A stretch of 64,000 nucleotides of DNA, from the NCBI GenBank assembly GCA_041659505.1, contig JBAZYF010000003.1, positions 86,026 through 150,025 on the forward strand. The letters are read 5' to 3'. The DNA is from Parcubacteria group bacterium. Lineage in GTDB: Bacteria > Patescibacteriota > Minisyncoccia > Moranbacterales > UBA2206. Positions 1 to 33,411 of this stretch are shown piece by piece. A program made the position numbers and the translations under genes. How positions within the stretch are numbered: the stretch's first letter is position 1; each line of letters starts with the position of its first letter. Below the pieces are notes generated by a model. It ran no database searches, was not told the DNA's origin, and was given only the letters and a program-made list of their open reading frames with translations.

Positions 1-342
1 TTGTATCGATTATGAACAAACATCAAATCCTCAACTATCCCTTTGAGAATTTTATTGTGCTTTTCATTCCAGCCTTTCAGCGCAATGCCCTCTCTTGCCA
101 ATTCTAAAATCGTTGCCATCTGGATGTGCAAATCGTTATTCTGCATTTGAAATTCCAATTGTTTTTTACGCTTCTGATTCATAGCCCTATGATTTTTTGG
201 ATACAAAAAAGGTCCTCCGTCGGCGGCACCGTTTCGGGCACCCAACACCCTTTCGAGTATTGACCCATGTGAACAGATACCGATCAGAAGACCGTTATTG
301 TTCACATGGGGTTTCATATATTTTGCCATGCCTACACCCGAA
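1..342 (-). CDS. hypothetical protein, 3' end cut off by the window edge. N-terminus is visible; the start is ATG at 182, 317 or 342
   Basis: Minus-strand frame is open from 342 through coordinate 1. It reads MPSGVGMAKYMKPHVNNNGLLIGICSHGS...MNQKRKKQLEFQMQNNDLHIQMATILELAREGIALKGWNEKHNKILKGIVEDLMFVHNRY. Segment 183-340 is GC-richer than 1-182, so the true start may be the ATG at 182. Confidence 0.25.
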
Positions 343-482
343 GGCATAAGTTTAGGCTGTATTGTAAATTTATTCTAGCTTTTTAAGTCGTGTTGGTCAA
401 TTTTCGGAAAGTTTTAGACACTCTTTTTAAATTTAGGCATACTAAAAACTAACTCCTATAAAAATAAGTTTTTATGCGTAAC

Positions 483-2231
483 TTACGTTTCCGAATACTT
501 TTTCCCATTAAGAAATCTGATTTCCTTTGTGAAATTAGCGACTCTATGATCATCTATTTCTAGGTTTAGCATTTTTTCTCGCTCTTCGTTTTCAATTTTA
601 TCCCTATTTAAGGTAAGAATGTATTGGAAGTCTTGTGACTCTTTTTTGGCTAAATAATTTAGACTTTTTATTAATGAATCCTGATCAACATCAAAAATAT
701 TATCATGAACCAAAAAATGAGGATGTCTCACTTGGGTGTATTCGTTAAATAATAATGCTAAATCATAAATAAAAACTTTCGTTCTGTCCACACTATGGCT
801 ACCATCATCATCTATCCTCATTTCAAATGATAAGACCTTTTTACTCTTCCCGCTTGTAACTGTCTTAATATCAAAGGATGCTTCGTTGCTATCCATTATA
901 TATTCATGGATACTTAAAATTGTTATATTAAAACTATCTATTATTTTTTTAGCATCAAATATCAAAGCATCCAGCTCCTGGAAATATTTGTCTTTCTCTA
1001 GTTTTAAATCCTTTAATTCTTTTTCGGTGTTTTCATAGGCCGCATACTTACTTTGAATATTTGCATAAGACTCTCTTTTTTGGTGATAAATAGCAAAACC
1101 GTTTTTCACATCCTTCAAAACACCCTTTTGATCAATAATTTCTAATTTATTTAGTCTGCTGTCTTCAAGAGCCTGAAGTTTTCTTGCAGTAACATTTAAT
1201 TCATCGCTTATAGATTTAATTTTTTCATTAAACAATTTTCTTTGGAATTCATCAATTTTTTGTTTAAAATTCACGACTTCTTCAATGGATTTGGAGACAA
1301 TATCACCAAGGCCTGATTTGAATTGGTTATAAATAATTTCAATATCTTTTTCTTTAATAGCCTCCAGTGCTGGGAAGGTTCTCATTTTTCTCAATTGATA
1401 TCTCAGGGCAGTCTGATGAGAGCGTAAATCATCTATCTCTATTTGCATTTTAGCCAAATCATCCTGCTGTAGCGCATATGCGTCATTGGTCTTGAAACTT
1501 TCAAGCGCTGTGTCTATTTTCTTTAAATCATCATTGAGGGAGTTGAGTGTAGCCTTGACATCGCCGACTTTTTTTGTTCCGTTTTCAGTTAAGGATTTTC
1601 TCAGTGCTGTTCTGTGGACACTAGTTTTTTCAATTTCTTTGAATTTTTTTTGTATCTTATTGATAAGCGAGACATCCAGACCAAAAATGAACGCACTTGG
1701 TTTTATGGCAGGAGGTATGGTCTTTTGTGAATTACTCTCATAACACATCATAATATCCTTAAACTCAGATCCTTCTTCTCTTAAGAACGGTCCCAGAAAT
1801 TCACGAAAACTAATATCTACACTTTCGGAAGTTTCCAAAAATAATATCCTCCCCAAATATTGGCTAGCATCATCCAAATTAGAAAAATCGGTTGTTTTAC
1901 CATCTTTTATAATTGTTGGATTTTCTGGTTTTCCTTTTGTTCTAATTATTCTAAGATTTTGAGAATTAATTTCAAGGTCTAAAATTATTTGAGTATCATC
2001 AGAAAATTTATCAAGTGGGATCTTCATAACCCGACTATTGGAACTTGCCTTTAAAAGACAAAAATTCACAAATTCTATACTTAAAGATTTGCCCACTCCA
2101 TTAGTTTTTTTCCCTTTTCTCACATTGTCTGTTTCAACTTTTTCACCCATGATAAGATTTATCCCATCTTGAAATTCGATGGGTTCAAATATTTCTGGTG
2201 AAGAATGAAGTTTCAATAATTTTATTCTCAT
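483..2231 (-). CDS. ABC/SMC-type ATPase with a long coiled-coil insertion (DUF2326/ABC-3C-like or Lamassu LmuB-like)
   Basis: N-terminal P-loop (GEKVETDNVRKGKKTNGVGKS). Central ~250 aa are heptad-rich coiled coil. C-terminal FLVHDNIFDVDQD is Walker B/D-loop-like. 4-nt ATGA overlap with the upstream small gene. Confidence 0.55.
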   Translation of the reverse strand: MRIKLLKLHSSPEIFEPIEFQDGINLIMGEKVETDNVRKGKKTNGVGKSLSIEFVNFCLLKASSNSRVMKIPLDKFSDDTQIILDLEINSQNLRIIRTKGKPENPTIIKDGKTTDFSNLDDASQYLGRILFLETSESVDISFREFLGPFLREEGSEFKDIMMCYESNSQKTIPPAIKPSAFIFGLDVSLINKIQKKFKEIEKTSVHRTALRKSLTENGTKKVGDVKATLNSLNDDLKKIDTALESFKTNDAYALQQDDLAKMQIEIDDLRSHQTALRYQLRKMRTFPALEAIKEKDIEIIYNQFKSGLGDIVSKSIEEVVNFKQKIDEFQRKLFNEKIKSISDELNVTARKLQALEDSRLNKLEIIDQKGVLKDVKNGFAIYHQKRESYANIQSKYAAYENTEKELKDLKLEKDKYFQELDALIFDAKKIIDSFNITILSIHEYIMDSNEASFDIKTVTSGKSKKVLSFEMRIDDDGSHSVDRTKVFIYDLALLFNEYTQVRHPHFLVHDNIFDVDQDSLIKSLNYLAKKESQDFQYILTLNRDKIENEEREKMLNLEIDDHRVANFTKEIRFLNGKKYSET

Positions 2232-2503
2232 ACTTTATAAATATAAGGATCTGTAAAATTTATAATACCCGCGGTATATAAAAATATTAACGATAGCATT
2301 ATTTGCCGATAATGAATTATTTTTAATTCCTTTTTTAATTTTTCAGTTACTTCAAAAATACTTACCTTATCATCATCCTTGCTCTTTAAAATTTTTAAAA
2401 TTAAATACCCAATATAAATTGGCGTTGTTTTAATTTCTTCATCTTTTGTAATCAAATTATTCTTCTTCATTTGGAAAAATACTACATTTGGGAATCTCTC
2501 CAA
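2228..2503 (-). CDS. small alpha-helical 'middle component' protein (91 aa) of a three-gene ATPase cassette
   Basis: Short ORF translationally coupled to the ATPase (ATGA overlap) and overlapping the upstream gene. Position and size fit the MC/LmuC-type adaptor. No recognizable catalytic motif. Confidence 0.4.
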   Translation of the reverse strand: MERFPNVVFFQMKKNNLITKDEEIKTTPIYIGYLILKILKSKDDDKVSIFEVTEKLKKELKIIHYRQIMLSLIFLYTAGIINFTDPYIYKV

Positions 2504-3386
2504 TTAAATAATATCTTATTGCACTATGCGCATATTTCTTGCCACTACTTTCAAGCTTATTCTCAAGATAATCTGCCATCTTATCTAACGCGGTCATAGG
2601 GTCACCATTATTCTCTCTTAAAAACCTACGACTAGTTTCCTTCAAAAACGCCACCTTTTTTGCTACCATTATCTTATCTGGACCAATTGCCTGTTCTGCT
2701 TCTTTTTGTGCACTTGCATACATTGCGCTATTTACTATTTCACTTTTAATTTGTACACAATAGCTACTAAAACGTTCGAGTTTTTTATCAGGATCAGGCA
2801 TGGTATTTTCAAACCCTTCATTGATAAAGTCCGCATTATCAGATACATAACAGATAAGATCCATTACGGTTTCAACTTCTGTCGCGTTGGAATTAATATT
2901 GGGAAGATTAAAGATTCTTTGCCGATCATTTTTGCTTAATTCAATAGCCTTTCTAACTATTTGTTCCAATCCCCAATGTTCCTTTTTTATTCCATCTCCA
3001 TTTCCATTTAATTCAATAATTTTTTGATGGGGCTTGCCCATTAAATTATCCCTTGTCACAAATACCCACTTATCAAACTGGTATTTATCTTTCCATTTTT
3101 CCAAAAATTTATCATAATCACCAAGCTCCTCTGATTTTTTAGGAATAGGATTTGAAATCTTCTTTGAAGTTATGCTATTATCGTATTTCTCTGATTCTGG
3201 ACCATACACGGCAAAAAAACATTTCTCATCTATACTGTACCCATCATTACCAAGATCATGTTGCATTTTAGGGGTTTGCAAATCCGGATAACAACAAATT
3301 AGGATATCCCACAAAATTTGCTGAAATTCCTTTCCTGTTTTTCTTGTCAATCGATCTCTTATTATTTCCTCAGAAGAATTAGCCAT
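2457..3386 (-). CDS. putative effector of the three-gene cassette with a PD-(D/E)xK-like motif
   Basis: First gene of the co-directional triad. Motif GNDGYSIDEKCFFAVYG resembles a restriction-endonuclease-fold D...(D/E)xK core. No other recognized family. Confidence 0.4.
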   Translation of the reverse strand: MANSSEEIIRDRLTRKTGKEFQQILWDILICCYPDLQTPKMQHDLGNDGYSIDEKCFFAVYGPESEKYDNSITSKKISNPIPKKSEELGDYDKFLEKWKDKYQFDKWVFVTRDNLMGKPHQKIIELNGNGDGIKKEHWGLEQIVRKAIELSKNDRQRIFNLPNINSNATEVETVMDLICYVSDNADFINEGFENTMPDPDKKLERFSSYCVQIKSEIVNSAMYASAQKEAEQAIGPDKIMVAKKVAFLKETSRRFLRENNGDPMTALDKMADYLENKLESSGKKYAHSAIRYYLIGEIPKCSIFPNEEE

Positions 3387-3494
3387 TTTTTATTTCGATA
3401 CTCAAGATTATATTTCATCTCAACTTTCTTGTTAAAATAATTATACCACATACTATCAGATTTGGTATCATTCATTCATTTTTAGCAAAATATC

Positions 3495-4001
3495 CTAACT
3501 AGAGAGATTCTTATTCTCCAAGATATTCCTAATATTTTGTGATAATTCTGAGAAGTTTCCGCCAACACTAATATGTTCTACTGGCAGACCAATTGCTTTG
3601 TATAATTCATCAATAAAATTATCCCGCTTTTTACGTTGTGCGCTATTATGCGATTTTCCATCTAGCTCAATAGCAAGCAATGGTTTTGTTGTGGCATAAT
3701 TACACACAAGGAAATCAACATGGCGTGACTTGATTTTGCCACGAAGACCCCAGTGACTATTGCCAGATATATTCTTCTTGTTCACATCAATAAAGTCCTC
3801 AATGCGAACCTTAGACAATACGATATAAACTTCTCCAAGTGCTTTTTGCAGATTAACGAATAATGCTTGCTCTGATTCATTCATTACCCTGTCCTTCTTT
3901 TGATATGAAGACAAACTCGTTAGTCTTTCCTTTTTCTCAATAAATGCCTTAGCGAGAGCAACAGCAACGATGAAAATGATTAATATAATTGTCCAAAGCA
4001 T
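3495..4001 (-). CDS. membrane-anchored DUF2726-like (PD-(D/E)xK, NERD-related) nuclease-domain protein
   Basis: N-terminal TM helix (LWTIILIIFIVAVALA). Core HVDFLVCN...LLAIELDGKSH matches the DUF2726 pattern (D...E.DGxxH). Confidence 0.5.
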   Translation of the reverse strand: MLWTIILIIFIVAVALAKAFIEKKERLTSLSSYQKKDRVMNESEQALFVNLQKALGEVYIVLSKVRIEDFIDVNKKNISGNSHWGLRGKIKSRHVDFLVCNYATTKPLLAIELDGKSHNSAQRKKRDNFIDELYKAIGLPVEHISVGGNFSELSQNIRNILENKNLSS

Positions 4002-4083
4002 AGTTTTGTTTTTATTGAATTATGTTTGATGAAATTAGAAAACAAATTAGACTTATCGTTTATTTTGCAATAATTGAAAAAAA

Positions 4084-5373
4084 TTACTTCAAATCAATCC
4101 TGTTGTTCTTTTTTAAATATTTTTCAATCATTTCATTTTCGAGTCTTTTTGCCAACCGCTCACCATAGCACCACCCTAATTGCTGACAAAAATCTTTAAT
4201 CAATTCTATTCTTTTCTCTTTTAAATCTTGCACCATGATATTCCTATTCCAGTCCAATTCATAATCTAATGATTTTTTTATTTTTTCGGATGTGAAATTT
4301 TCATCTCCCTTATACAGAAAATTATTATCCGTTTCTGAGAGTACAAACGAGAGTTCTATGTAACCCCAATAACCCAAATCTTCATAAAATTTATATGCAA
4401 ATTCAATGAGCAAATCTATTCTGGCTATTAAATGATAGAAGCCATAATACCCAAGTTTGTCTTCCCTTATATTATCAAAATTCATTTCACCCTCCCTTTC
4501 AAAACTTTGTTTTAACAATTCTATATCCTGCATGAATATTTCTCCATAGTATAAAAGTCCGAAATCATTGATTTCTGTATAATTTTTTTCGTTATATTTA
4601 ATAACAACACCATCATTTATAACCCTTCTTTTATCTATGAATCTAGGAAATCCACCTGAACTAAAATAATCATTAATTTGAAGCTCGCCGAGAAAATCAA
4701 ACAAATGATCTGGATTCGTTAGCACTTGATTTGGATAAATTGGGATCGATGAGAAATATCCACTTCCAAAAGGCTTTCTACTCCTAAAGGTTGCTATCAG
4801 TGTATTTTCCTCATTGGGAACATAAATTTTATCATTGTGTCTTTGCGTGGCCGAGGTTAATAAATTTTTTTTCAAATTATCTGATTTATCTCTCCTATTT
4901 CTCAACCACTCCAATTGCTCCATCGTGGCTAAACTTTCAGGGGTTTTAGTGTCATTAATTCTCACATATGCTCTAGTATTTCCCCTGATAGCATGGGGCG
5001 TTTCATTACTCGGATGAATTCTTATTACAACCAGCGCCTTCGTGCAATCATCGTTCTTGCAAACTTTTACTTCTGGAAATATTATTGGGTAAATATTATC
5101 AATGATTATTCTTGTTACTTTTTCAGAAATGCCCTCTTTATTTTCAAGGCCTTCAACTGGGAGCAATGGAACACCGTCATCATCTTTTACACCAACAATA
5201 ACTAAGCCACCAAAAGTATTTGCGAAAGCGCTCAGTGTCATTGCGAGTTTTTTATTGTCAGCATTAAAGTCTTCCTTGTAATCCAAATTAACATTTTCCC
5301 TGATTTTCTCATTACAAAAAGCAACAACATCCTCATAGGAAATATCTTCAATTTTTTTATTATATAAAATCAT
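4084..5373 (-). CDS. Schlafen/AlbA_2 (divergent AAA, PF04326-like) domain protein
   Basis: N-terminus EDISYEDVVAFCNEKIRENVNLDYKEDF...LSAFANTFGGLVIVGVKDDDG is the canonical AlbA_2 signature (LEfK...AFAN..GG.l.iGv.D.G). Confidence 0.6.
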   Translation of the reverse strand: MILYNKKIEDISYEDVVAFCNEKIRENVNLDYKEDFNADNKKLAMTLSAFANTFGGLVIVGVKDDDGVPLLPVEGLENKEGISEKVTRIIIDNIYPIIFPEVKVCKNDDCTKALVVIRIHPSNETPHAIRGNTRAYVRINDTKTPESLATMEQLEWLRNRRDKSDNLKKNLLTSATQRHNDKIYVPNEENTLIATFRSRKPFGSGYFSSIPIYPNQVLTNPDHLFDFLGELQINDYFSSGGFPRFIDKRRVINDGVVIKYNEKNYTEINDFGLLYYGEIFMQDIELLKQSFEREGEMNFDNIREDKLGYYGFYHLIARIDLLIEFAYKFYEDLGYWGYIELSFVLSETDNNFLYKGDENFTSEKIKKSLDYELDWNRNIMVQDLKEKRIELIKDFCQQLGWCYGERLAKRLENEMIEKYLKKNNRIDLK

Positions 5374-5519
5374 AGCTTTAATTAATTTTTATCTTTAGCA
5401 TAATTCTCAATAGCAAGCTCAGCCAATCCATAAAGATTATCCCTGATTTCCAAAACTTCTTCATCAGCGATATTTTCGTCGTTTAATATTTTCTTGACTT
5501 CTTCAATACTTAACATTCC

Positions 5520-7013
5520 TTATACTGATTTTAATACTTTCCAAATTTCAACCATAGCCAAGGTATCAAGATGGCAATAGTCCTTGAGTGCCTGCACTTT
5601 CATATTTTTTTCATCCTCAGAATATTCATCCGACACAATACGATTCCATGTATCTGACGCGGCACCACCCTCTTGAATATGCATATCCTTATATGAAAGA
5701 TGAGGAACAAGTGCCGGCAAAACATACTTTATTGAAGCGCTTCCTTTAAACTCTGGATGATCATACATTGTTGTATTTCCGTAAAATGGAATCATCAAGT
5801 CTACAACGCGATTATTAACACTTTGCATAAAATCCCGATATTCAGGCAGACGCTTTCCAATTTCTTCATTTCTCTTTTTTTCAAAACTCTGATTCCAAAC
5901 AACAACACTTCCTGTTTTCGGGATATGCTTTTCCAATGCTTTTGCGAAACTTTCATCAGGACAACCTTGATCAGTATAAATAAAATCATAATGTTCCAAT
6001 TCGCTCTCGCGTGAGTCAATCACATGCAGTGAAAATTGAAAAGTTATTTGCTGATATGGACTGTACCCACTATATCTCGGCAAGGCTGATGGATATGTTT
6101 CATAGTCAAGAAATGACAATGGGTATTTCATCGTTCCTAAAAATTCAGCAATGCTTTTTTTATCAATATATTCTTTGCCGGATTTGGCCGTTTCCACTTG
6201 CCTTTTCTGATTATCTGAAAGTGGGAAATCATCCGGCACATCGTGAATATTGAAAATATGACTATCAACCAACTCTGCTAATTTTTTTCCATTGATTCTT
6301 AAAATTGCGTGAACTGGATATTCCGGAAGATCAGAATTTGAATACCAAGCTGTTGTACAATGCGAGTTTTTCCCTTTCAAAATACAATCGCAATGCCCTT
6401 TCGGTTCAGCTTCACTAGATAACAATTCATAGGCACCCTCCATTTTTTGCTTTATGTCATCCAGCTTCTCATTCACTTGGCTAGTCGAATCTTCTATAAA
6501 AAATAACTTTTCCAAGTTAATTTCGCCAAGGCGGACATATTTTTTATTAAGCCTGATCAAATTGAAAGTTCCCATCTCAATGCCCAAATCATTCAGGACA
6601 TTCTTTTGAAAAGCCATATCTATCAAATAATCCTCGGTTTTTCTTCCTCCGTTTTCTTCCGAAGCTGTCGATGACTTCACTTCATATAGATCATAGACAT
6701 TTGTATCCAGATTGAAAACAAAAATATCAGAGACTGCGAGATATTTTTCGGTTGCAAAAACAGGCTGATAAATTACAGGTGTCTTTTCTTCCATAAGCTT
6801 CCTTGTAAGCTCTGTATCATCACGAGATTCCACTAGCACGCCGCCCGAGAAAAGGCCGCGCGCAAGCTCGTCAATTTGATTGCCAGTATCAATAATATTC
6901 AGCTCAAAAGAAGAAAGTGCTTTTTTCTTATATACCTCTGGATTGTGAATTTTTAGCCAAGCATTTTTTGCACAATCGAGACATATCAGAAAGTTTGTTT
7001 TTGATAATTTCAT
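5520..7013 (-). CDS. DUF2779-like protein (RecB/Cas4-like nuclease N-terminus)
   Basis: N-terminus LSKTNFLICLDCAKNAWLKIHNPEV resembles the DUF2779 start (LSKS.F..G.QC.K.LWL..H.PE). Later CDC...C cysteine cluster. Confidence 0.4.
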   Translation of the reverse strand: MKLSKTNFLICLDCAKNAWLKIHNPEVYKKKALSSFELNIIDTGNQIDELARGLFSGGVLVESRDDTELTRKLMEEKTPVIYQPVFATEKYLAVSDIFVFNLDTNVYDLYEVKSSTASEENGGRKTEDYLIDMAFQKNVLNDLGIEMGTFNLIRLNKKYVRLGEINLEKLFFIEDSTSQVNEKLDDIKQKMEGAYELLSSEAEPKGHCDCILKGKNSHCTTAWYSNSDLPEYPVHAILRINGKKLAELVDSHIFNIHDVPDDFPLSDNQKRQVETAKSGKEYIDKKSIAEFLGTMKYPLSFLDYETYPSALPRYSGYSPYQQITFQFSLHVIDSRESELEHYDFIYTDQGCPDESFAKALEKHIPKTGSVVVWNQSFEKKRNEEIGKRLPEYRDFMQSVNNRVVDLMIPFYGNTTMYDHPEFKGSASIKYVLPALVPHLSYKDMHIQEGGAASDTWNRIVSDEYSEDEKNMKVQALKDYCHLDTLAMVEIWKVLKSV

Positions 7014-7106
7014 GCAATTTTTTTAATCAATCGCCAAAAAACTATTATTTAAAATCATATTTGCCATTTTGCTTTTCGGGTTTAGTCCAATTTTTTCGCA
7101 AAACTT

Positions 7107-9293
7107 TTATTTTATCATTCGATTGTAGTGTGCCTCATGTCCAGAATTTTCAAATATTTTTTTAAATGCTTCTTTGAAAATTTGAGGATCAACTTCTTTT
7201 GTGTCAGAAATATTTATTCTATCAAAATGTGATTCTCTATTTATATATCTCAAAAAATAAGAGTATTTGCCATCTGTTAGATTTTCAATTGCTTTATCAT
7301 ATTTTTCATTATCAATAAAACCAAAAAAACATTCTAAAATATTTCTCATAGAATTAGCCAATAAACTATCAGGGGCGTTATCGTCTTTTATTATTTGCCA
7401 ATACTGTTGATAGTCATTTAATATCTCATCTTTACCCATTTCAGAAATTATAGATTTTTTTTCTCGATTCTTGGTAATTCTAAAAAGTTTTTCCCTGTCG
7501 TCTTTCTTGTTTTTCTCTGTGTATTTTATTAATTCGTGAAAAAGATATAAATTATGAGTTAAAATGAATACTTGCTTATAGTCATCATTAAAAAAGTTTT
7601 TTCTTATGAGCTGTGCAACATTAAAAACATACATATGCGACAAGCTAGAAATTGGATCATCAATAACAACTATTTTTTCAGTTGCTATATCATCATTATT
7701 TTCTTTGCCTTTGCATAATTCCAAAAAATACAGAAAACTAATTACTGTTTTTTCTCCCTCGCTCAATGTTTCAAATTTAGCAATATCTTCGTTTGGTCTT
7801 TGTAGTTTGTATGACTTTTCTCCAGCTGGAACAATAGAAAATCCATCTAATCCAAAAAATATTAATTCACTATTTATAGCCTCAATTGCATCTTGAATGT
7901 TTACCATTTCCTTTTGTGCGTCTTTTATTATCGTTCCTCGCTCTTCAATATTTTTGTTTAACTCTGAAATTTTAGTTTCAATATCTGATTTTTCTTTTTC
8001 AACTTTCACTTTTTGAGTGTTATAATTTTCTATTGTTTGATCATAATCCCACCGCATAATTTCCCAGAAGTCTTTAATGATCTGATTTCTTGTTTTTTGT
8101 TTGTTTTTTAGCTTTTCATTATGAGTTTTTATTTCATTAATAATTGTATCTAAAAAATCATTCAGTGCTTTTTGTTCTAAAATACTTAATTCTAAGGCAA
8201 TGACTACATTCGGACTTTTAATTTTATTGTTAATTTTTGACCAATTATTGTTCAATTTATCAATAAAATTTTTAAACAAAAGCTTAAATTTGGTTTCTTT
8301 GACCTTTATAAAATCAATTTGTAAAAGTTCATTTTCTAACTTTTTTGCATCCTGATATTCTCTAAAATATTCTTTGTCTAAATCTTCTAATTCTGTGATT
8401 TTTTGTTGGTAAGATACGTCAAAGTAATTTTGAATTTCTTGATATAAATCTTTAGTTATAGTTTTTTGCTGACAAAAAGGACAGATTTTATTTTCCTCTC
8501 GGGGTTCATTTATAAACTCTTTCCCTTTTTTCACCCAATCAGAATTGTTTAATTTCTCAATAAGATCCGCTACTTGTGAATTTTCATTTCCAATAATTAC
8601 TTCTTTGAAAATTTCCTTTTCTTCGGTTTTCCAAAAATCAAAAGTTACTTTTTTAACCAAATTTTCGTCATAAGTTTTGGCGCTTTTTCCTTGCGTTGCT
8701 TCTGCTTCTTTTTTTAAATCTTCTTTTGATTTTTCTGGTTTATTTGCTGGTTTTTGTAATCTTAAAAGATGATCAAATAAGTCTTTTTTGCTTCCCCTTT
8801 TTCCTTCCAAGCAAAATTCCAAAATTCTATCTCCACCCGAATATTTTGTTTTTATCTCCCAAGTTTTATCTTCTGTTGTATTTTGTAAATCAGCGACATT
8901 TTCTTGTTTTTTATTTAAGTCAAATTGAAATCCGGTTTTCAATTCATCGTTTTCAATTTGATTCTTTAGTTTATTTATCTCCTGAGTAGCTGTATCTATT
9001 TTTTCTTTTGCTTCTTTGTTTTCTGACTTCAGACTAAAAATACCTCTTTGTGTGTCCTGATAAAAATTATCACCAACAAATTTTTGATTATAAACTAACA
9101 CTTTTTCATTATTTAGTTCTGCAATTGAACAGCAAGAAAAACAAGCGTTATCTTTATCTTGAAGATAATTTGAAAGAGTTGTTTTTCCTGTCCCATTCAG
9201 TCCATAAATAAGATTGATTTTTTTATCAGTCTCCAAGATAGCGGGTGTTTCCCCATAACTTGCAGTATTTTTTATAGAAATCTTAGTGATCAT
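7107..9293 (-). CDS. AAA_13-family ABC ATPase (PrrC/RloC-like) with a coiled-coil insertion and CxxC hook-like motif
   Basis: Walker A GLNGTGKTT at the N-terminus. Long coiled coil with ICPFCQQK (zinc-hook-like CxxC) in the middle. Walker B/D-loop VVIDDPISSLS. C-terminal region carries R/H-rich motifs (RYINRESHFD, SGHEAHYNRM) compatible with a PrrC/RloC-type nuclease module. Confidence 0.55.
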   Translation of the reverse strand: MITKISIKNTASYGETPAILETDKKINLIYGLNGTGKTTLSNYLQDKDNACFSCCSIAELNNEKVLVYNQKFVGDNFYQDTQRGIFSLKSENKEAKEKIDTATQEINKLKNQIENDELKTGFQFDLNKKQENVADLQNTTEDKTWEIKTKYSGGDRILEFCLEGKRGSKKDLFDHLLRLQKPANKPEKSKEDLKKEAEATQGKSAKTYDENLVKKVTFDFWKTEEKEIFKEVIIGNENSQVADLIEKLNNSDWVKKGKEFINEPREENKICPFCQQKTITKDLYQEIQNYFDVSYQQKITELEDLDKEYFREYQDAKKLENELLQIDFIKVKETKFKLLFKNFIDKLNNNWSKINNKIKSPNVVIALELSILEQKALNDFLDTIINEIKTHNEKLKNKQKTRNQIIKDFWEIMRWDYDQTIENYNTQKVKVEKEKSDIETKISELNKNIEERGTIIKDAQKEMVNIQDAIEAINSELIFFGLDGFSIVPAGEKSYKLQRPNEDIAKFETLSEGEKTVISFLYFLELCKGKENNDDIATEKIVVIDDPISSLSHMYVFNVAQLIRKNFFNDDYKQVFILTHNLYLFHELIKYTEKNKKDDREKLFRITKNREKKSIISEMGKDEILNDYQQYWQIIKDDNAPDSLLANSMRNILECFFGFIDNEKYDKAIENLTDGKYSYFLRYINRESHFDRINISDTKEVDPQIFKEAFKKIFENSGHEAHYNRMIK

Positions 9294-9331
9294 AATTTAA
9301 AATATCAAATTTACTGGATATTTTTTTGATT

Positions 9332-10426
9332 TTATTTCCCCGATTTTCTTCTATTGCATTCTTTGCATAACATTTGGCAATTCTTTGCAACAGTTTTTCC
9401 GCCCTCATGCCAAGGATTTATATGATCAGCTTCCATTTCTTCAATTTCAAAATGTTTCTTGCATTTTTTACAAATGCCTTTTTGTCGCTCATAGGCTTCC
9501 AGCTTCATTTTCTCGTTAAACGCTCGAATATTGAGATATTTTTCTTCACCAGTTAGCACATACCAGTACACGCCTTTTTTGCTGTCAACGTCTTCGTCGG
9601 CAATCAATCGCGCAACTTCACTCTCCAATTCTTCTGCATCTAATTTAGTATTCTTAAATTTACCATATAATTCTCCCCACTCGATTCCTTTCATCATCTT
9701 ACGATATTTTGGAAAAACCATTCGCACCCACTCAATCACTTTTTGAAAATACGCCCATAATTCCTCAGCAGTTGCATCATGTTGATGTTTCCCCATATAG
9801 TCTTCAATTTTATCATTACTAATCCAGCGAAGTACTGTTTCCAAATATTCTTGACGATTTAATGCTCCCCCCATATAGTCATTAGCCGAAAGGGATGCTG
9901 GAGCATTGCTCTTACTAAAATATCGCTTAGCATCAGTTACCCAAGTCCCCGAGTAGATAGCATTTAATAATTCTTGATTCGTTAACTTTTCACCCGCAGT
10001 ATTAATAACCTTAAACCATGCCAATTTCTCATCATATGTACCTTCGCAAAAATAAACCATGAGCTTATAATCCAAAATCTTCGCTTTTTCTTTTTCAGTT
10101 AGATTGTCGAAATACATTTGATATTCACGATTTGTAATGTTAAAGTTACCAGCTACAAAATTACAAATGCTAACTGTGCGCTGTTGTCCATCAAGAATTT
10201 CAAAGCTTCCATCATTATTCTTTACCCAATACATTGCATTTAGCGGAAAACCTCCAATCACTGAATTTATTACAGCAATTTGTTGTTCGGGTTTATAAAT
10301 AAATTCACGCTGATACTTCGGACGAATATCTAATTTTCCGCCATATCCAACCACACCCTCTTCATCGCTATCCTGATATCCAGCAAAAAGTTCACGCACT
10401 GGAATTTCATTTAGTTCAATTTCCAT
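9332..10426 (-). CDS. DUF262 (ParB/GmrSD N-terminal-like) domain fused to a C-terminal HNH endonuclease
   Basis: N-terminal ILDGQQRT motif typical of DUF262. C-terminal CKKCKKHF..ADHINPWHEGGKT..NCQMLCKECNRRK is an HNH zinc-finger nuclease motif. Confidence 0.65.
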   Translation of the reverse strand: MEIELNEIPVRELFAGYQDSDEEGVVGYGGKLDIRPKYQREFIYKPEQQIAVINSVIGGFPLNAMYWVKNNDGSFEILDGQQRTVSICNFVAGNFNITNREYQMYFDNLTEKEKAKILDYKLMVYFCEGTYDEKLAWFKVINTAGEKLTNQELLNAIYSGTWVTDAKRYFSKSNAPASLSANDYMGGALNRQEYLETVLRWISNDKIEDYMGKHQHDATAEELWAYFQKVIEWVRMVFPKYRKMMKGIEWGELYGKFKNTKLDAEELESEVARLIADEDVDSKKGVYWYVLTGEEKYLNIRAFNEKMKLEAYERQKGICKKCKKHFEIEEMEADHINPWHEGGKTVAKNCQMLCKECNRRKSGK

Positions 10427-10427
10427 A

Positions 10428-11486
10428 TTATTTTTTTCGTTTAATTAAAATTCGATTATATATTTTCCTACCTTCAATTAAAGTAAAACATTCGTAACCA
10501 ATCCATCTTGCAGAATTAGCAATGCCCAATATTTCAAACTGCGCTGGGCTATATTTATCAACAAAGGTAATCGGTACGCCCATTACACTCTCATAATCCA
10601 TTGGAATATCAGCAACTTTATCAACATTTATAACGTTGTAGTTATCGTATTTTGGAAATTCTCCCGGCGTATATTTCTTATATAACACTATTTTTTCATG
10701 ACGTTTTGTATTGTCGAGGTTTGTATACCACACAATTCTACCCATACTGAAAAACTTTGTACCATTTTCAATTTTTATTCTTGACTCTGTCTCAATATCA
10801 TAATCATTGGGAACCTGAAACCATTTTGTACCACCATTGTCGTAGCCGTGCCACAATTTATTTTCTTTGATGAAACCGAAAGTTTCTTTATAGGTTACTG
10901 CATTTTGGTCGCCAAGAATCAAAAACTTCTTGTTATATTCAATCAATTGCGCAACATATTCCCGAAACAATGAAAAAGGTGGATTAGTCACCACGATATC
11001 TGCTTGTTTTAAAAGTTCTATACTTTCTTCACTTCTAAAATCTCCATCGCCTTCCAACGGTGCCCATTCATTGTTTTTGTTTGCTTTGAGTTGTTCAGCA
11101 ATATCACGCAAATCAAACGCACCATCACCGTCGAGATCGCTAACTTCATTGATAATGAATTTATTGGCCGTTAATTTTGGACGACCCTTTGTTATGGGCA
11201 GTGTCTTATTATCTCCAAATAATCCAAGTTGAGTATTAGCAATTGGTGATGGTTTGTAACTTGTAGCGATAAGTTTCTTTAGACCCAAAGCATTAAAATT
11301 TGAGGCAAAATACTTAAAAAAGTTACTCTCGAAAGGATCGTCACAATTGCAATATACCACCTTGTCACGAAATTGTTCTTTATAGTGTTTTAATTCCTTT
11401 TCAATATCAACAAGCTGAGTATAAAACTCATCTTTTTTTGCCTTGTTGGCTTTATGCAAATTACTGTTTAATGACTTATTTTCCAT
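10428..11486 (-). CDS. N6-adenine DNA methyltransferase, gamma-class (N6_Mtase-like)
   Basis: Motif X-like DEFYTQ followed by catalytic motif IV VVTNPPF. 1-nt gap to the downstream gene. Whether it is an orphan or R-M-linked MTase is unresolved. Confidence 0.65.
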   Translation of the reverse strand: MENKSLNSNLHKANKAKKDEFYTQLVDIEKELKHYKEQFRDKVVYCNCDDPFESNFFKYFASNFNALGLKKLIATSYKPSPIANTQLGLFGDNKTLPITKGRPKLTANKFIINEVSDLDGDGAFDLRDIAEQLKANKNNEWAPLEGDGDFRSEESIELLKQADIVVTNPPFSLFREYVAQLIEYNKKFLILGDQNAVTYKETFGFIKENKLWHGYDNGGTKWFQVPNDYDIETESRIKIENGTKFFSMGRIVWYTNLDNTKRHEKIVLYKKYTPGEFPKYDNYNVINVDKVADIPMDYESVMGVPITFVDKYSPAQFEILGIANSARWIGYECFTLIEGRKIYNRILIKRKK

Positions 11487-11490
11487 GAAA

Positions 11491-12402
11491 TTACTTATTC
11501 AAATCATAACTTTGCTTGATTAAAATAAAAGCTGATTCAAGGTCTTTTTCATCTTTTAATTTCACCTCATAATCTCCATTGCCCCAGTGTCCCTTTTTAG
11601 GTTTTGTGAAGTCTGTAGATATTTCAAACAAATCAACCAATTCACCACTTTTTACATTAAGTGTGATTCGTATTTCATCCTTATGAATAATCAGGTCGGC
11701 AAAGTTGGTTGCTGTTTTGTAGGCTATATAAAATTTCTTTGGCTCCTCTTTTATTTCCTCGTCGATGGAAATAATTTTTTCGCGCAATTTGTAAAAAAGA
11801 TCTTTTGTTTTTTGATCGGTTTTTTTCAGGTGGTCATCAATCGAATAATTTTTTTGTAGAACCTCGTGCTTTTCTTTTTGATTTTTAGACTTTTTGATAA
11901 TTCCAGAAGTAGAAATTTTTATTTTCTGATAGTTTTCCGGCTCAAGAAAAAGAAGATCGTTTTCATAGATCCTGTATCTCAAAAGTTCGATGTTAATTGG
12001 TAAAATATCTGCCGTGTCTATATCAAATTTGTTATAATTTTCCGCGACACAAATTACCCGCGGAGAATCCCAATCAATATCAATTTTGATATTTTTGTTT
12101 TTGCATAAAAATTCAAAATCAGCTTTGTGATCCAATAGCCAGCGCAAATATGAAAGACCTTGATTGATAACGCTATCGTTTTGATTTTTCTTATACTCAA
12201 TAATGCAGGGTGAGCCATTTTTATCTATACCCAAGGTATCAATCCTGCCCCCGAAACTAGTCGAATATTCATGAGCTAAAAAATCAATATTCAAAATTTC
12301 TTCCAGATTATTTTCAAATAATTTCTGCAAGTCCTTTTCTAGGCCTAAGTCTTTCGTTACTAATTTTGATACCTTTGGATTTTGAATCTTAAATAATGCC
12401 AT
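11491..12402 (-). CDS. NucS/DUF91-like PD-(D/E)xK endonuclease (candidate restriction endonuclease)
   Basis: GGRIDTLGID...GSPCIIEYKK gives a D...E.K nuclease core in a DUF91/NucS-like arrangement. Immediately upstream of the MTase with a 4-nt spacing. Confidence 0.45.
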   Translation of the reverse strand: MALFKIQNPKVSKLVTKDLGLEKDLQKLFENNLEEILNIDFLAHEYSTSFGGRIDTLGIDKNGSPCIIEYKKNQNDSVINQGLSYLRWLLDHKADFEFLCKNKNIKIDIDWDSPRVICVAENYNKFDIDTADILPINIELLRYRIYENDLLFLEPENYQKIKISTSGIIKKSKNQKEKHEVLQKNYSIDDHLKKTDQKTKDLFYKLREKIISIDEEIKEEPKKFYIAYKTATNFADLIIHKDEIRITLNVKSGELVDLFEISTDFTKPKKGHWGNGDYEVKLKDEKDLESAFILIKQSYDLNK

Positions 12403-12648
12403 CTAATTTAAACTTATTTTTTCCAATCTTTAACAAAACCCATCCACACACTTGACGGCTACTTCTTATTTCCCTTTTTTGTGACTTTTCCAATATTTTA
12501 ATAATACTCCCGAACGACCATAAAGTAAAGGAAAACAGCCCCTATTTCGCCAAATTCTGCCCTACGGGCGTTTTTCATATCGAAATGGTACAAGTACCCC
12601 AAAGGCAGGTCAGCTTCTCTCTGCCCCCAATATTCCGTGCAACCCGCC

Positions 12649-14613
12649 CTACTTGTATTCCTCCAAAAATTCCAGCATTTCCTTTTGTTCGGCGAGGGCT
12701 TCTTTGGCTGATTTTTCGACAGATGCGAGCATACCCTCAAAAGCCACTTTGTTTTCCACCGAGGTGACGCCGCTCAAATGCTTTCGTGCTTTCTCGGTGT
12801 GAAAAAGTGCCTTATTGCATACTTCCTGGATTACCTCATACCAAAATATTTTTTGCAGTTCCTTGATCTCTTTCTTCAAATCCAATTCTTTGAGGCTCTT
12901 GTTCCCGCCTCGTCTTGAGTATTTTTTCAAAACCTCAATTACCGTCGGGCTTAGTTGTCCTTTTTTGAGATCATCTTCCCAATCATGCGCGTCGTCATTA
13001 AGCTGTCTGGCGATTATATAATTTTCAAAGAATGCGAGTAAGTTTTTTATTTCTGAAGACTCAATGTTTTTTGTGTGAAAATACAACACAGCTATTGATC
13101 CCAACGCGTGACCGATGGAACGATCGGCGAGTCTTTCTAATGTTCCAAAATCAGGCAATCGGTCGGGAATCGTCAATCGTGATCCGGCTACCTGCGCTCG
13201 GCAATTAGTTGTCTCCCAGGCATTAGCAGAATCAATCCTGTCCATTGTGTTTTTGAAAAATTGTAAAAATTTTTCATCCTTCGCAAAAGTTTCGCAGTAT
13301 ATTAATGTTAATTCGCGAAGGCAGATATTGGCCAAGGAAAGAAACCTCGGGTCACCTTCGCCATCGAAAAAATCATCATAAATCGTATAGGCTATCCAGC
13401 CATAGAGACTGGCCACTTCCAGTTCAATGAGAATATTCTCATCCACAGCCTTATTGCTCCCCAGCGATTTTTGAAAATAATAGGGCAAGAGGGTTACTCG
13501 ATTTGCGTTGTCTCCTTTCAATATCCTTTTCCTGACAGCCAGAAAATTCTCAGTCAGTTCAGAATTGAAATTAGAAAATCTTTGATCTGTTAGCTTGATT
13601 ATCCTTTTATGTATCCTTTCCTGCTCCCTGTCTATTTTTATTTCTTTTTTATTCTTGACCGACTCATCTTCAGTCAAAAATTTTCCCACAGTTTCCAGAC
13701 AGAATGCCGTTGTAAGTTCCGCGCTACCGGAATAATGTTTTTGTTTCTTTTCTATTTTTTCAACCACGAAGGGATAGGCTTTCCACTCTCCATTTATTTT
13801 GTTTTTCAAGATAGATCCCAGACTTTCCTCCAGTTTTTCCTTATTGTGCCCTAGGTTAATAAGCGCGCTGACTGCCAGTGCGGTTTCCAAGGGATTACCC
13901 CAAGAATGATTCTTGTGCCTATTTTCCAAGAGATAGGAAATTATTTTGTCTTTCTTTTTTCCTTTGTACCAGCGAGAGATAAAATAAATGATGGCGTATG
14001 GGGATTGATAATAGGGAGAGCTGTATCTTCCAGAATCAATCGCTTCTTCCGCGAGAGCAGTCAGACTTTCCAGGGTCACGTCCTGAAGCGAAAGAAAAAA
14101 CGCAATGTTGCTGTTGACCGCCAAATCAATGTCTTTCCAGTCTTTGCCTGCATTCTGTGGAGTGAGCCACGTATAATACGGCCCGCCTTCTTTGCTCTCG
14201 CAAAATGTGAGAAGATTGATGACTTTAGCGATGGCTCTTATGGAGATAATTTTTTGATTATGCTTGGTCAGTGCGACCATAGCGCAACAAGTATCATCCA
14301 AATCGTCCGGGTACGGCGTATCTTTGCTTTCCGGCGAATTTCTTTTCCAATAATTCCACGACCAAAAATCGCTTTTTTGGCTCATCAGAAATTTTGCAGT
14401 TTTGCTTCTTACATTATCAAGCGCCTTTGAACTGGGAAGATTATTGAGACTCGCTAAAATTAAGCACGTGGGAAATGCGGATTGGTTTTCCCTGGATGCA
14501 TTGAAATCTTTTGAAGTTGAAACAAGATTGGAAAAACTTCCGTCTTTTTTTTGCCTTTGATCTAAATAATCAATACTCGCCTTTATCGTTTTGTCTATAT
14601 AGCTATGGTTCAT
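12649..14613 (-). CDS. terpene-synthase-like protein: N-terminal SHC-like class II (alpha/alpha toroid, DxDDT) region plus C-terminal class I (DDxxD) domain
   Basis: The ORF track extends to 14841 through an R-rich junk N-terminus overlapping the histidine kinase gene. A start at ATG 14613 (MNHSYIDKT...) is more plausible. Motifs: PYPDDLDDTCCAMVAL (compare SHC PYYPDVDDTAVV); QW-like repeats (DGSFSN, EGGPYYTW, NHSWGNPLETALAVSAL); C-terminal IYDDFFDGEGD and NDDAHDWED. Confidence 0.5.
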   Translation of the reverse strand: MNHSYIDKTIKASIDYLDQRQKKDGSFSNLVSTSKDFNASRENQSAFPTCLILASLNNLPSSKALDNVRSKTAKFLMSQKSDFWSWNYWKRNSPESKDTPYPDDLDDTCCAMVALTKHNQKIISIRAIAKVINLLTFCESKEGGPYYTWLTPQNAGKDWKDIDLAVNSNIAFFLSLQDVTLESLTALAEEAIDSGRYSSPYYQSPYAIIYFISRWYKGKKKDKIISYLLENRHKNHSWGNPLETALAVSALINLGHNKEKLEESLGSILKNKINGEWKAYPFVVEKIEKKQKHYSGSAELTTAFCLETVGKFLTEDESVKNKKEIKIDREQERIHKRIIKLTDQRFSNFNSELTENFLAVRKRILKGDNANRVTLLPYYFQKSLGSNKAVDENILIELEVASLYGWIAYTIYDDFFDGEGDPRFLSLANICLRELTLIYCETFAKDEKFLQFFKNTMDRIDSANAWETTNCRAQVAGSRLTIPDRLPDFGTLERLADRSIGHALGSIAVLYFHTKNIESSEIKNLLAFFENYIIARQLNDDAHDWEDDLKKGQLSPTVIEVLKKYSRRGGNKSLKELDLKKEIKELQKIFWYEVIQEVCNKALFHTEKARKHLSGVTSVENKVAFEGMLASVEKSAKEALAEQKEMLEFLEEYK

Positions 14614-33285: not shown

Positions 33286-33314
33286 TTTTTTTATTTTAAT
33301 TTATTATTCACTTT

Positions 33315-33411
33315 TTCATTCCACCACCGCCTTAATCCTCCTCACACCCGCCGAAGAGCTTTCTTCTTTTTGGATGCGGAATTTGCCTTTGATTTCGGCG
33401 GTATTTTTGAT
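33315..33411. repeat. 97-bp direct repeat, copy 2 (authentic 3' end of alaS)
   Basis: See copy 1. Confidence 0.85.

What the first reader, a model, noticed from the sequence alone, without database searches (positions are those of the whole stretch)
7107..10426. PrrC/RloC-like AAA_13 ATPase with CxxC hook paired with a DUF262-HNH nuclease, next to an R-M-like pair
PrrC and RloC anticodon nucleases are classically embedded in or beside R-M loci as a second line of defense. Here a 728-aa AAA_13 protein (Walker A GLNGTGKTT, coiled coil with ICPFCQQK, C-terminal R/H-rich RYINRESHFD / HEAHY) lies 38 nt downstream of a DUF262-HNH (GmrSD-like, possibly modification-dependent) nuclease. That nuclease abuts an N6A-MTase and a NucS-like REase. 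An ABC-ATPase plus DUF262-HNH two-gene unit may work as one system: either the ATPase regulates the HNH nuclease, or it is an RloC-like tRNase that monitors the neighbouring restriction proteins.
Basis: partly seen in the sequence, partly recalled or inferred. Interest (0 to 1): 0.7.

Follow-up and report, generated by a model that had tools for sequence, protein, structure and literature searches.

The report
Suicide tRNA nuclease beside restriction system
The 728-aa ATPase is a typical member of the known RloC family of anticodon (tRNA-cutting) nucleases, inserted as a single-gene cassette behind a self-sufficient methylase/DUF262-HNH restriction pair; it is a new example of a known defence arrangement, not a new two-gene system.

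Summary
Both ORFs and every quoted motif are at the stated coordinates. The 728-aa protein matches Pfam AAA_13 end to end and PADLOC candidate PDC-S06. It meets every sequence criterion published for RloC: size, ABC-ATPase motifs, coiled coil with a CxxC hook, and a C-terminal Arg-x3-Glu…Ser-His triad. These residues are invariant or nearly so in 64 relatives at 28-76% identity.

The proposed ATPase + DUF262-HNH unit is not supported. In 80 metagenomic loci of the DUF262-HNH nuclease, an EcoRI-family methylase lies directly upstream in 59 of 72 scorable cases. An AAA_13 gene follows in 0 of 66, and the NucS-like gene never appears. A 7.5-kb plasmid carries only a regulator, this methylase, this nuclease and rep. 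The restriction pair is therefore methylase + DUF262-HNH, not methylase + NucS-like.

The RloC gene has no fixed partner. Among its 25 closest relatives, at least 18 sit in Type I, Type III, MmeI, Eco47II or DUF262-HNH restriction operons, usually within -4 to 46 nt of the upstream gene. DNA similarity usually ends at the ORF borders.

Most likely it is an abortive-infection backup to restriction. tRNase activity and any coupling to the restriction system are untested. This is a new member of a known kind, of low to moderate interest.

The parts
7107..9293 (-). rloC-like gene: 728-aa ABC/Rad50-like ATPase with a coiled-coil zinc hook and a C-terminal anticodon-nuclease-like domain
   Evidence: Pfam AAA_13 5e-115 over the full length. 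PADLOC PDC-S06 764 bits and PrrC 3e-14. Homologues at about 71-76% identity are named 'wobble nucleotide-excising tRNase' by JGI. The AlphaFold2 model (mean pLDDT 79) matches Rad50/SMC/PtuA/LmuB in Foldseek.
9180..9203 (-). Walker A / P-loop, GLNGTGKT (residues 31-38)
   Evidence: G31, N33, G34, G36 and K37 are invariant in 64 relatives.
8472..8483 (-). CPFC zinc-hook motif (residues 271-274), at a break between the long helices of the coiled-coil insert
   Evidence: C271, P272 and C274 are invariant in 64/64. The model has a low-pLDDT loop at 269-273 between helical regions, with long helices from 281 to 479. It corresponds to the CX2C hook of GkaRloC (PMC2610378, PMC3458546).
7749..7766 (-). 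ABC signature LSEGEK (residues 510-515)
   Evidence: Invariant in 64/64.
7638..7673 (-). Walker B and D-loop, IVVIDDPISSLS (residues 541-552). The H-loop T579-H580 follows at 7554-7559.
   Evidence: D545, D546, P547, S549, S550, L551, T579 and H580 are invariant.
7110..7436 (-). C-terminal all-helical domain (about residues 620-728) carrying the putative anticodon-nuclease triad: R650 (7344-7346), E654 (7332-7334) and S688-H689 (7227-7232)
   Evidence: M649-R650-N651 and E654 are invariant, S688 is 64/64 and H689 is 63/64. The pattern R-x3-E-x34-SH fits the PrrC/RloC triad (PMC2610378). The fold test was inconclusive.
9294..9331 (-). 38-nt spacer between the nuclease gene and rloC; no terminator-like site on the coding strand
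   Evidence: The same junction (38-41 nt) occurs in L001, L004 and L005.
9332..10426 (-). DUF262 (ParB/GmrS-like, DGQQR motif) + HNH nuclease: the restriction component of the adjacent R-M pair. It is not a dedicated partner of the ATPase.
   Evidence: Pfam GmrSD_N plus HNH. PADLOC REase_II PDLC03418, 448 bits, 1-364 against 1-372 of 372. HNH region matches PDB 4h9d. Context statistics.
10428..11486 (-). EcoRI-family N6-adenine DNA methyltransferase, cognate of the DUF262-HNH nuclease
   Evidence: Pfam EcoRI_methylase 3.7e-134 and PADLOC MTase_II 4.8e-121. Its stop codon lies 1 nt from the nuclease start codon. It is directly upstream of the nuclease in 59 of 72 loci.
11491..12402 (-). Neighbour, not part of the R-M pair: DUF5655 protein with a weak NucS-like N-terminus (PADLOC PDC-S18)
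   Evidence: Absent from all 80 DUF262-HNH loci. Present at the same position only in L004.
5520..7013 (-). Neighbour: DUF2779 protein downstream of rloC, shared with L001, L004 and L005 only

Best explanation
The 728-aa protein is an RloC-type anticodon nuclease. It is a Rad50-like ABC ATPase whose coiled coil carries a CxxC zinc hook, fused to a C-terminal RNase domain with an Arg-Glu-His triad. It is a self-contained single-gene abortive-infection cassette. Here it is inserted at the 3' end of an autonomous two-gene R-M operon (EcoRI-family m6A methylase + DUF262/ParB-HNH nuclease) and is probably co-transcribed with it.

Shown here: family membership at the sequence level, autonomy of the R-M pair, and the cassette-like, promiscuous linkage of this RloC clade to many R-M types.

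Inferred from work on GkaRloC and AbaRloC (PMC2610378, PMC3458546, PMC3874168): the nuclease is held off by its own zinc-hook/ATPase switch. DNA ends plus ATP hydrolysis switch it on. It then excises the wobble nucleotide of tRNAs and stops translation, so that phage which escape or overwhelm restriction are contained.

My inference: the R-M neighbour supplies the promoter and possibly the cue (restriction-generated DNA ends, or failed restriction), rather than a specific protein-protein silencer.
For: Family:
- Pfam AAA_13 matches the full length, and PADLOC gives PDC-S06 at 764 bits and PrrC at 3e-14.
- JGI names homologues at about 71-76% identity 'wobble nucleotide-excising tRNase'.
- All published RloC criteria are met (PMC2610378).
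- Walker A, signature, Walker B, H-loop, CPFC, R650, E654 and S688-H689 are invariant or nearly so in 64 relatives down to 28% identity.
- The fold of the N-terminal region matches Rad50/SMC heads with coiled coil.

No fixed partner:
- Upstream and downstream neighbours are heterogeneous.

R-M linkage of the close clade (at least 18 of 25 loci):
- Type I (L002, L006, L007, L010, L012, L017, L018, L019), Type III (L003), MmeI (L020), Eco47II/C5 methylase (L009), a beta-class methylase (L013), DUF262-HNH (L001, L004, L005, L014, L015) and Mod+Fic (L046).
- Upstream junctions are -4 to 46 nt on the same strand in most of these (exceptions: L009 149 nt, L046 179 nt; L015, L017 and L018 have no usable upstream ORF call).
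- DNA homology in L002, L003 and L006-L013 starts and stops at the ORF borders.

Autonomy of the R-M pair:
-.

Transcription:
- No terminator-like site on the coding strand between 12500 and 7100.

Literature:
- Fic/DOC and RhuM neighbours match the RloC-like contexts described in PMC3710099.
Against: - No biochemical data exist for this protein or its close clade. Anti-phage activity of RloC is still listed as untested (PMC12322248).
- The Glu-to-His spacing is 34 residues, just outside the 36-52 quoted for RloC (PrrC has 31).
- No bona fide GkaRloC or EcoPrrC sequence was available for direct alignment.
- Co-transcription is inferred only from spacing. The promoter scan was not above chance.
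- Distant relatives (below 45% identity) are mostly not R-M linked, so linkage is not required for function.
Confidence: 0.72

Rival explanations
1. PrrC-style guard. The ATPase-nuclease is physically bound and silenced by the neighbouring R-M proteins (methylase and/or DUF262-HNH nuclease). It is released when a phage anti-restriction factor inactivates them.
For: The close clade sits inside R-M operons with tight or overlapping junctions in at least 18 of 25 loci. In L006 and L010 it lies between hsd genes, as prrC does. The PrrC precedent is in PMC2610378 and PMC12707154.
Against: The same cassette (about 75-81% nt identity) sits behind at least five structurally unrelated R-M types. A specific protein-protein silencer is therefore hard to conserve. 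RloC has an internal zinc-hook/ATPase switch, and AbaRloC is activated in an R-M-deficient host (PMC3458546, PMC3874168). More distant relatives lack R-M neighbours.
Confidence: 0.15
2. A two-gene ATPase + HNH effector system (Septu/PtuAB-like), in which the ABC ATPase senses infection and licenses the DUF262-HNH nuclease.
For: The genes are adjacent (38 nt). The Foldseek list of the ATPase model includes PtuA of retron/Septu complexes. The nuclease gives marginal PtuB hits (E about 0.006).
Against: 0 of 66 DUF262-HNH loci carry the ATPase, while 59 of 72 carry the methylase directly upstream. Only 5 of 80 ATPase loci carry the nuclease, and those share one conserved junction, which suggests a single ancestral insertion. 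The nuclease plus methylase stand alone on pLa3_1. The ATPase has its own conserved effector domain.
Confidence: 0.04
3. A Rad50/SbcC-type DNA-repair ATPase with no nuclease role.
For: The best structural matches are Rad50, SMC, cohesin and condensin heads with coiled coil. It has a CxxC hook.
Against: No Mre11/SbcD-type partner appears in 80 loci. Rad50/SbcC lack the extra invariant C-terminal domain with R-x3-E...SH (PMC2610378). The context is a defence island and R-M operons on mobile low-GC DNA.
Confidence: 0.03
4. Functional independence. The RloC cassette and the R-M pair merely share a defence-island hotspot, and adjacency has no mechanistic meaning.
For: The surrounding 12 kb is packed with unrelated defence candidates: PDC-S18, DUF2779, SLFN_AlbA_2, DUF2726 and an ABC-3C system. 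RloC is reported to work without R-M (PMC3874168). Distant relatives are unlinked.
Against: The junctions to the upstream R-M gene are very short or overlapping on the same strand. At least 18 of 25 close relatives are R-M linked, against about 11% reported for RloC overall (PMC2610378).
Confidence: 0.25

Closest known systems
RloC (Geobacillus kaustophilus GkaRloC, Acinetobacter baylyi AbaRloC; COG4694; DefenseFinder 'RloC')
   Same: Size class. Rad50-like ABC ATPase split by a coiled coil with a CX2C hook. C-terminal Arg-x3-Glu...Ser-His triad. Single gene, laterally mobile, sometimes inside R-M loci and near Fic/DOC or RhuM genes (PMC2610378, PMC3710099).
   Different: The Glu-His spacing is 34 rather than 36-52. 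This clade is R-M linked in about 70% of loci, against about 11% reported. The linkage includes Type II systems (DUF262-HNH/EcoRI-family, Eco47II/C5, MmeI), not only Type I/III. Hosts are CPR bacteria, Bacteroidota, Campylobacterota and some archaea. Activity is untested.
PADLOC candidate system PDC-S06
   Same: Full-length 764-bit match to model PDLC04886. It is a single-gene candidate, as found here.
   Different: PDC-S06 is an unannotated candidate label. On the evidence here it covers RloC-type proteins. That equivalence is my inference and is not stated in the papers I read.
PrrC-EcoprrI (E. coli anticodon nuclease embedded in a Type Ic hsd locus)
   Same: ABC ATPase plus a C-terminal anticodon nuclease with an R-x3-E...H triad. 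Embedded in an R-M operon as a backup to restriction. The PADLOC PrrC model hits at 3e-14.
   Different: PrrC is 341-416 aa, has no coiled-coil/zinc-hook insert and is always in Type Ic loci, where the R-M protein silences it. Here the protein is 728 aa with a hook, the partner is Type II-like, and the C-terminal domain alone does not reach the PrrC model.
Septu / retron-associated PtuA-PtuB (ABC ATPase + HNH nuclease)
   Same: An ABC ATPase with coiled coil lies next to an HNH nuclease. PtuA appears among the structural matches.
   Different: The gene order is reversed, the two genes do not co-occur, the HNH protein has its own methylase partner, and the ATPase has its own RNase-like domain.
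GmrSD / BrxU / SspE (DUF262 + DUF1524 Type IV or modification-sensing nucleases)
   Same: N-terminal DUF262 ParB-like domain with the DGQQR motif, and a C-terminal His-Me finger nuclease (PMC4619093).
   Different: The nuclease domain is a classic zinc-ribbon HNH (PF01844), not DUF1524. The protein is half the size. It is almost always paired with an EcoRI-family methylase, which implies modification-blocked rather than modification-dependent cleavage.

Membership tests
RloC | Size 658-897 aa (PMC2610378) | tested here: met
   728 aa. Full-length relatives listed are 721-760 aa.
RloC | [quoted passage not shown] | tested here: met
   GLNGTGKT, LSEGEK, IVVIDDPISSLS and T579-H580 are present. 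The core residues are invariant in 64/64 relatives.
RloC | Coiled-coil insert with a central CX2C zinc hook that splits the ATPase head | tested here: met
   C271-P-F-C274 is invariant. The model has long helices on both sides of the hook and an N/C-split head that matches Rad50/SMC. Zinc binding was not tested.
RloC | C-terminal Arg-X3-Glu-X(36-52)-His triad, with Ser often preceding His | tested here: met
   R650-NIL-E654, then 34 residues, then S688-H689. R and E are 64/64, S is 64/64 and H is 63/64. The spacing is 34, between PrrC (31) and the quoted RloC range.
RloC | Profile-level membership (Pfam AAA_13 / COG4694) | tested here: met
   AAA_13 at 386 bits, covering model positions 3-713 of 713. 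Homologues at about 71-76% identity carry JGI's COG-derived name 'wobble nucleotide-excising tRNase'. A direct alignment to GkaRloC was not possible because no sequence was available.
RloC | Wobble-nucleotide-excising tRNase activity, regulated by the zinc hook and a DNA-dependent ATPase | not testable with these tools
   Requires expression, tRNA northern or sequencing assays, and mutants.
HEPN superfamily (nuclease domain of PrrC/RloC) | Helical-bundle fold with an Rx4-6H motif | tested here: inconclusive
PrrC | About 341-416 aa, no coiled-coil insert, embedded in a Type Ic hsd locus | tested here: not met
   The protein is 728 aa with a zinc hook, and its neighbour is a Type II-like pair. 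The PrrC model hit (3e-14) covers residues 415-717, but the C-terminal domain alone gives no hit.
Septu-like ATPase + HNH two-gene system | Conserved co-occurrence of the ATPase and HNH genes | tested here: not met
   0 of 66 nuclease loci have the ATPase. 5 of 80 ATPase loci have the nuclease.
Type II-like restriction-modification pair (methylase + DUF262-HNH) | Conserved adjacent methylase and nuclease genes that are mobile as a self-sufficient unit | tested here: met
   59 of 72 loci have the methylase directly upstream, and most of the rest have it within the locus. Full-length PADLOC REase_II and MTase_II matches. 119 plasmid records carry a match, among them pLa3_1, which holds MerR + methylase + DUF262 + rep only.
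Type II-like restriction-modification pair (methylase + DUF262-HNH) | Sequence-specific cleavage that is blocked by the cognate methylation | not testable with these tools
   No characterised enzyme of this architecture was found in the papers searched.
GmrSD Type IV enzymes | DUF262 + DUF1524, acting alone on modified DNA | tested here: not met
   The C-terminal domain is PF01844 HNH, with no DUF1524 hit. There is an obligate methylase neighbour.
Rad50/SbcC repair ATPases | Mre11/SbcD nuclease partner and no C-terminal effector domain | tested here: not met
   No such partner appears among the most frequent neighbour families of 80 loci. An extra conserved C-terminal domain is present.

The most novel reading that the evidence does not exclude
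In this clade, RloC is a portable 'restriction-coupled abortive infection' module. Because the same cassette is fused at operon level to at least five unrelated R-M types, its trigger would be a product common to all of them, not a specific protein contact. That product is most plausibly the DNA ends made when the neighbouring nuclease cuts incoming or unmodified DNA. Any R-M system would thereby become a two-stage system: cut the DNA first, then shut down translation if cutting persists. A secondary novelty is that the DUF262(ParB-like NTPase)-HNH nuclease would be an NTP-dependent, modification-blocked restriction enzyme built from a Type IV (GmrS) module.
Probability: 0.2. Interest if true: 0.55.

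Novelty: new member of a known kind. Interest (0 to 1): 0.25.

Why it matters
It corrects the annotation of the locus. The R-M pair is methylase + DUF262-HNH, and the ATPase is an RloC-type anticodon nuclease rather than a regulator of the HNH enzyme.

It also suggests that the untested PADLOC candidate PDC-S06 corresponds to RloC.

One RloC clade, found in CPR bacteria, Bacteroidota, Campylobacterota and some archaea, is linked at operon level to many R-M types, Type II included. This is far more frequent than the roughly 11% reported for the family. It would give a tractable system for an old open question: whether and how RloC cooperates with restriction.

Tried and rejected
- PDB sequence searches with the protein and with the family profile found only coiled-coil noise.
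- Foldseek against afdb50 was unavailable, so no AlphaFold PrrC/RloC comparison could be made.
- The C-terminal 109-133 aa scanned alone against PADLOC hit only PDC-S06 models, not PrrC.
- I could not obtain GkaRloC or EcoPrrC sequences for direct alignment. The HEPN paper's held supplement contains no alignments.
- An exact-sequence look-up of the window protein found no contig.
- Promoter-like sites were not above the shuffle expectation (51 against 58), so no promoter is claimed.
- The repeat search over 1-13500 found only short chance matches and no att-like or terminal repeats.
- No tRNA gene flanks the island.
- I considered and rejected the Septu-like pairing, a Rad50/SbcC repair role, and a Type IV (modification-dependent) reading of the DUF262-HNH protein. 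Reasons are given under the rival explanations and membership tests.
Full report
**Observation**

The window carries a run of same-strand (-) genes in a low-GC stretch. GC is about 31-33% over 1-12000, against about 39-46% for most of the rest of the window. The two ORFs of the finding are exactly as described: 7107..9293 (728 aa) and 9332..10426 (364 aa), separated by 38 nt. All quoted peptide strings are present.

Family scans of the four genes gave the following:

| Gene | Pfam | PADLOC |
|---|---|---|
| 7107..9293 | AAA_13, E=5e-115, end to end (model 3-713 of 713) | PDC-S06, 764 bits; PrrC, 3e-14 |
| 9332..10426 | GmrSD_N/DUF262 + HNH | REase_II, full length, 448 bits |
| 10428..11486 | EcoRI_methylase | MTase_II |
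| 11491..12402 | DUF5655; NucS hit below threshold | PDC-S18 |

**What the 728-aa protein is**

A search of public proteins found more than 2,200 relatives. Many share 70-84% identity across Candidate Phyla Radiation (CPR) bacteria and Bacteroidota. Several are named 'wobble nucleotide-excising tRNase' by JGI, which is the name of the RloC cluster of orthologous groups (COG).

Davidov and Kaufmann (PMC2610378) define RloC by these features:
- size 658-897 aa;
- PrrC-like ABC-ATPase motifs;
- a coiled-coil insert with a CX2C zinc hook;
- a C-terminal Arg-X3-Glu-X36-52-His triad, often with Ser before the His.

The window protein has all of them:
- GLNGTGKT (Walker A), LSEGEK (signature), IVVIDDPISSLS (Walker B/D-loop) and T579-H580 (switch His);
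- C271-P-F-C274 (hook);
- R650-NIL-E654, then 34 residues, then S688-H689 (triad).

I aligned 64 full-length relatives taken from 80 genome loci, spanning 28-76% identity and many phyla. These residues are invariant or nearly so; for example C271 and C274 are 64/64, R650 and E654 are 64/64, and H689 is 63/64. Their order and approximate positions parallel the mutated residues of GkaRloC: K44, C291, D572, R692, E696 and H737 (PMC2610378, PMC3458546).

An AlphaFold2 model (mean pLDDT 79) shows a split ABC head, long antiparallel helices with the hook at a low-confidence apex, and an all-helical C-terminal domain. Foldseek against the PDB returns Rad50, SMC, cohesin and condensin heads, and also PtuA and LmuB.

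**Is the ATPase paired with the DUF262-HNH nuclease?**

No.

I fetched 80 metagenomic loci encoding homologues of the nuclease at 60-82% identity and scored the neighbours:
- An EcoRI-family methylase lies directly upstream in 59 of 72 loci with enough flank, and elsewhere in the locus in most of the rest.
- An AAA_13 gene follows in 0 of 66.
- The NucS-like gene is present in 0 of 80.

The pair also occurs on plasmids of many phyla: 119 plasmid records match the nuclease, and an EcoRI-family methylase is annotated at the match in many of the top hits. One example is the 7.5-kb pLa3_1, whose only genes are a MerR regulator, the methylase, the DUF262 protein (its start overlapping the methylase stop) and rep.

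In the window the methylase stop and the nuclease start are 1 nt apart. The R-M unit is therefore methylase + DUF262-HNH. It is autonomous. Its constant methylase partner argues for modification-blocked rather than modification-dependent cleavage.

**What the ATPase is linked to**

Of 80 genome loci encoding relatives of the ATPase, only L001, L004, L005, L014 and L015 have the DUF262-HNH/methylase pair upstream.

The other close relatives sit in other R-M systems:
- Type I hsd genes: L002, L006, L007, L010, L012, L017, L018, L019. In L006 and L010 the gene lies between hsd genes, as prrC does.
- Type III Mod/Res: L003.
- MmeI: L020.
- Eco47II plus a C5 methylase: L009.
- A beta-class methylase, in a Woesearchaeota contig: L013.

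A Lactococcus plasmid copy lies about 1 kb from an Eco57I-type methylase/BsuBI-PstI pair.

Counting the 25 loci with at least 45% identity, at least 18 are R-M linked. In most of these the upstream junction is -4 to 46 nt on the same strand. Among the 55 more distant loci, mostly gammaproteobacterial, only about 6 are linked. That figure is a lower bound, because detection used a limited set of seed sequences. It is close to the 8 of 72 reported for RloC overall (PMC2610378).

Pfam counts over all upstream and downstream neighbours show no conserved partner family and no SbcD/Mre11. Fic/DOC and RhuM genes recur, as Anantharaman et al. noted for RloC-like ABC-HEPN proteins in R-M neighbourhoods (PMC3710099).

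At the DNA level, similarity between the window and L002, L003 and L006-L013 (69-81% identity) begins within about 15 nt of the start codon and ends within a few nt of the stop. The ORF itself behaves as the mobile unit.

The five loci that share the DUF262-HNH context also share the junction. In L001, DNA similarity extends about 125 nt into the 3' end of an otherwise only 38%-identical nuclease gene. This points to one ancestral insertion spread by recombination, not to repeated selection for this pairing.

**How it most likely works**

*Shown here:* identity as an RloC-family protein at the sequence level, an autonomous R-M neighbour, and cassette-like operonic insertion behind diverse R-M systems. 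No terminator-like site lies on the coding strand from the NucS-like gene through rloC.

*Taken from the literature:*
- GkaRloC excises the wobble nucleotide of tRNAs. Its nuclease is silenced by the zinc hook and switched on by its DNA-dependent ATPase, with linear DNA far more active than circular DNA (PMC2610378, PMC3458546).
- Inducers of DNA double-strand breaks activate RloC in its natural host, even without R-M (PMC3874168).

*My inference:* here RloC is co-expressed with the R-M operon and serves as an abortive-infection backup. Its trigger would be generic, such as DNA ends or failed restriction, rather than contact with a particular R-M protein. The main reason is that the same cassette serves at least five unrelated R-M types. 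PrrC-style physical silencing remains possible (about 0.15), and pure co-location without coupling cannot be excluded (about 0.25).

**Comparison with known systems, and novelty**

- The protein is a member of the RloC family; every sequence-level criterion is met and activity is untested.
- It is not PrrC: it is twice the size, has a hook insert and is not in a Type Ic locus.
- It is not a Septu-like ATPase-HNH pair, because the two genes do not co-occur.
- It is not a Rad50/SbcC repair protein.
- The DUF262-HNH protein is related to GmrS-type modules but is not a GmrSD Type IV enzyme.

Defence catalogues already list both parts: PADLOC has PDC-S06, REase_II and MTase_II, and DefenseFinder has RloC. 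Linkage of RloC-like proteins to R-M operons is also published (PMC3710099).

What is modestly new:
- the specific Type II partner;
- the high, operon-level R-M linkage of this clade across many R-M types;
- its spread in CPR bacteria and archaea.

Verdict: a new member of a known kind, interest about 0.25.

Noticed in passing
window 483-3386 (-): A three-gene ABC-3C (ABC three-component) system: a DUF2326 ATPase (483-2231; PADLOC PDC-M68B, 3e-53), Middle Component 6 (2228-2503; Pfam MC6) and a 309-aa protein with no family hit (2457-3386), which is presumably the effector.
   Followed up: no
window 225-358 (-): An Rfam LOOT RNA motif (RF03000; 71 bits against a gathering score of 46, full model) lies just downstream of the ABC-3C ATPase gene, near the low-GC island. 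Its function is unknown.
   Followed up: no
window 3495-7013 (-): More defence-island-type genes lie between the ABC-3C system and rloC: DUF2726 (3495-4001), SLFN_AlbA_2 (4084-5373) and DUF2779 with an RNase_H-like C-terminus (5520-7013). The low-GC island runs from the window start to about 12500.
   Followed up: partly
window 5520-12408 vs L004:6857-13712: The five-gene block from the NucS-like gene to DUF2779 is shared with a MAG contig (L004), but the similarity is mosaic: NucS-like 89% and DUF2779 85% aa identity, RloC 74%, and methylase and nuclease only 58-60%. This suggests the R-M genes were swapped or diverged faster (a specificity change) inside a conserved frame.
   Followed up: partly
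L001:9833-9959 vs window 9332-9457: In L001 the nuclease is only 38% identical overall, yet its last ~125 nt plus the spacer and rloC are about 83% identical in DNA to the window. This marks a recombination junction inside the HNH-coding 3' end.
   Followed up: partly
L161 (plasmid pLa3_1, NZ_CP034226.1) and hits H1-H15: The EcoRI-family methylase + DUF262-HNH pair is widespread (more than 576 metagenomic stretches, 119 plasmid records) and occurs on minimal plasmids. I found no biochemical characterisation of this ParB-like-NTPase/HNH restriction architecture in the papers searched.
   Followed up: partly
L013, L079: Close RloC relatives occur in archaeal contigs: Woesearchaeota at 59% identity next to a beta-class methylase, and a truncated copy in Methanospirillum. 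This implies cross-domain transfer.
   Followed up: no
window 11491-12402 (-): A protein with a weak NucS-like N-terminus plus DUF5655 matches PADLOC single-gene candidate PDC-S18 (1.2e-96). It starts the gene run, 4 nt before the methylase gene, but is not a conserved neighbour of that methylase.
   Followed up: partly
window 32001-34000 and 50001-52000: Two further low-GC patches (about 33% against about 42%) may be other inserted elements.
   Followed up: no
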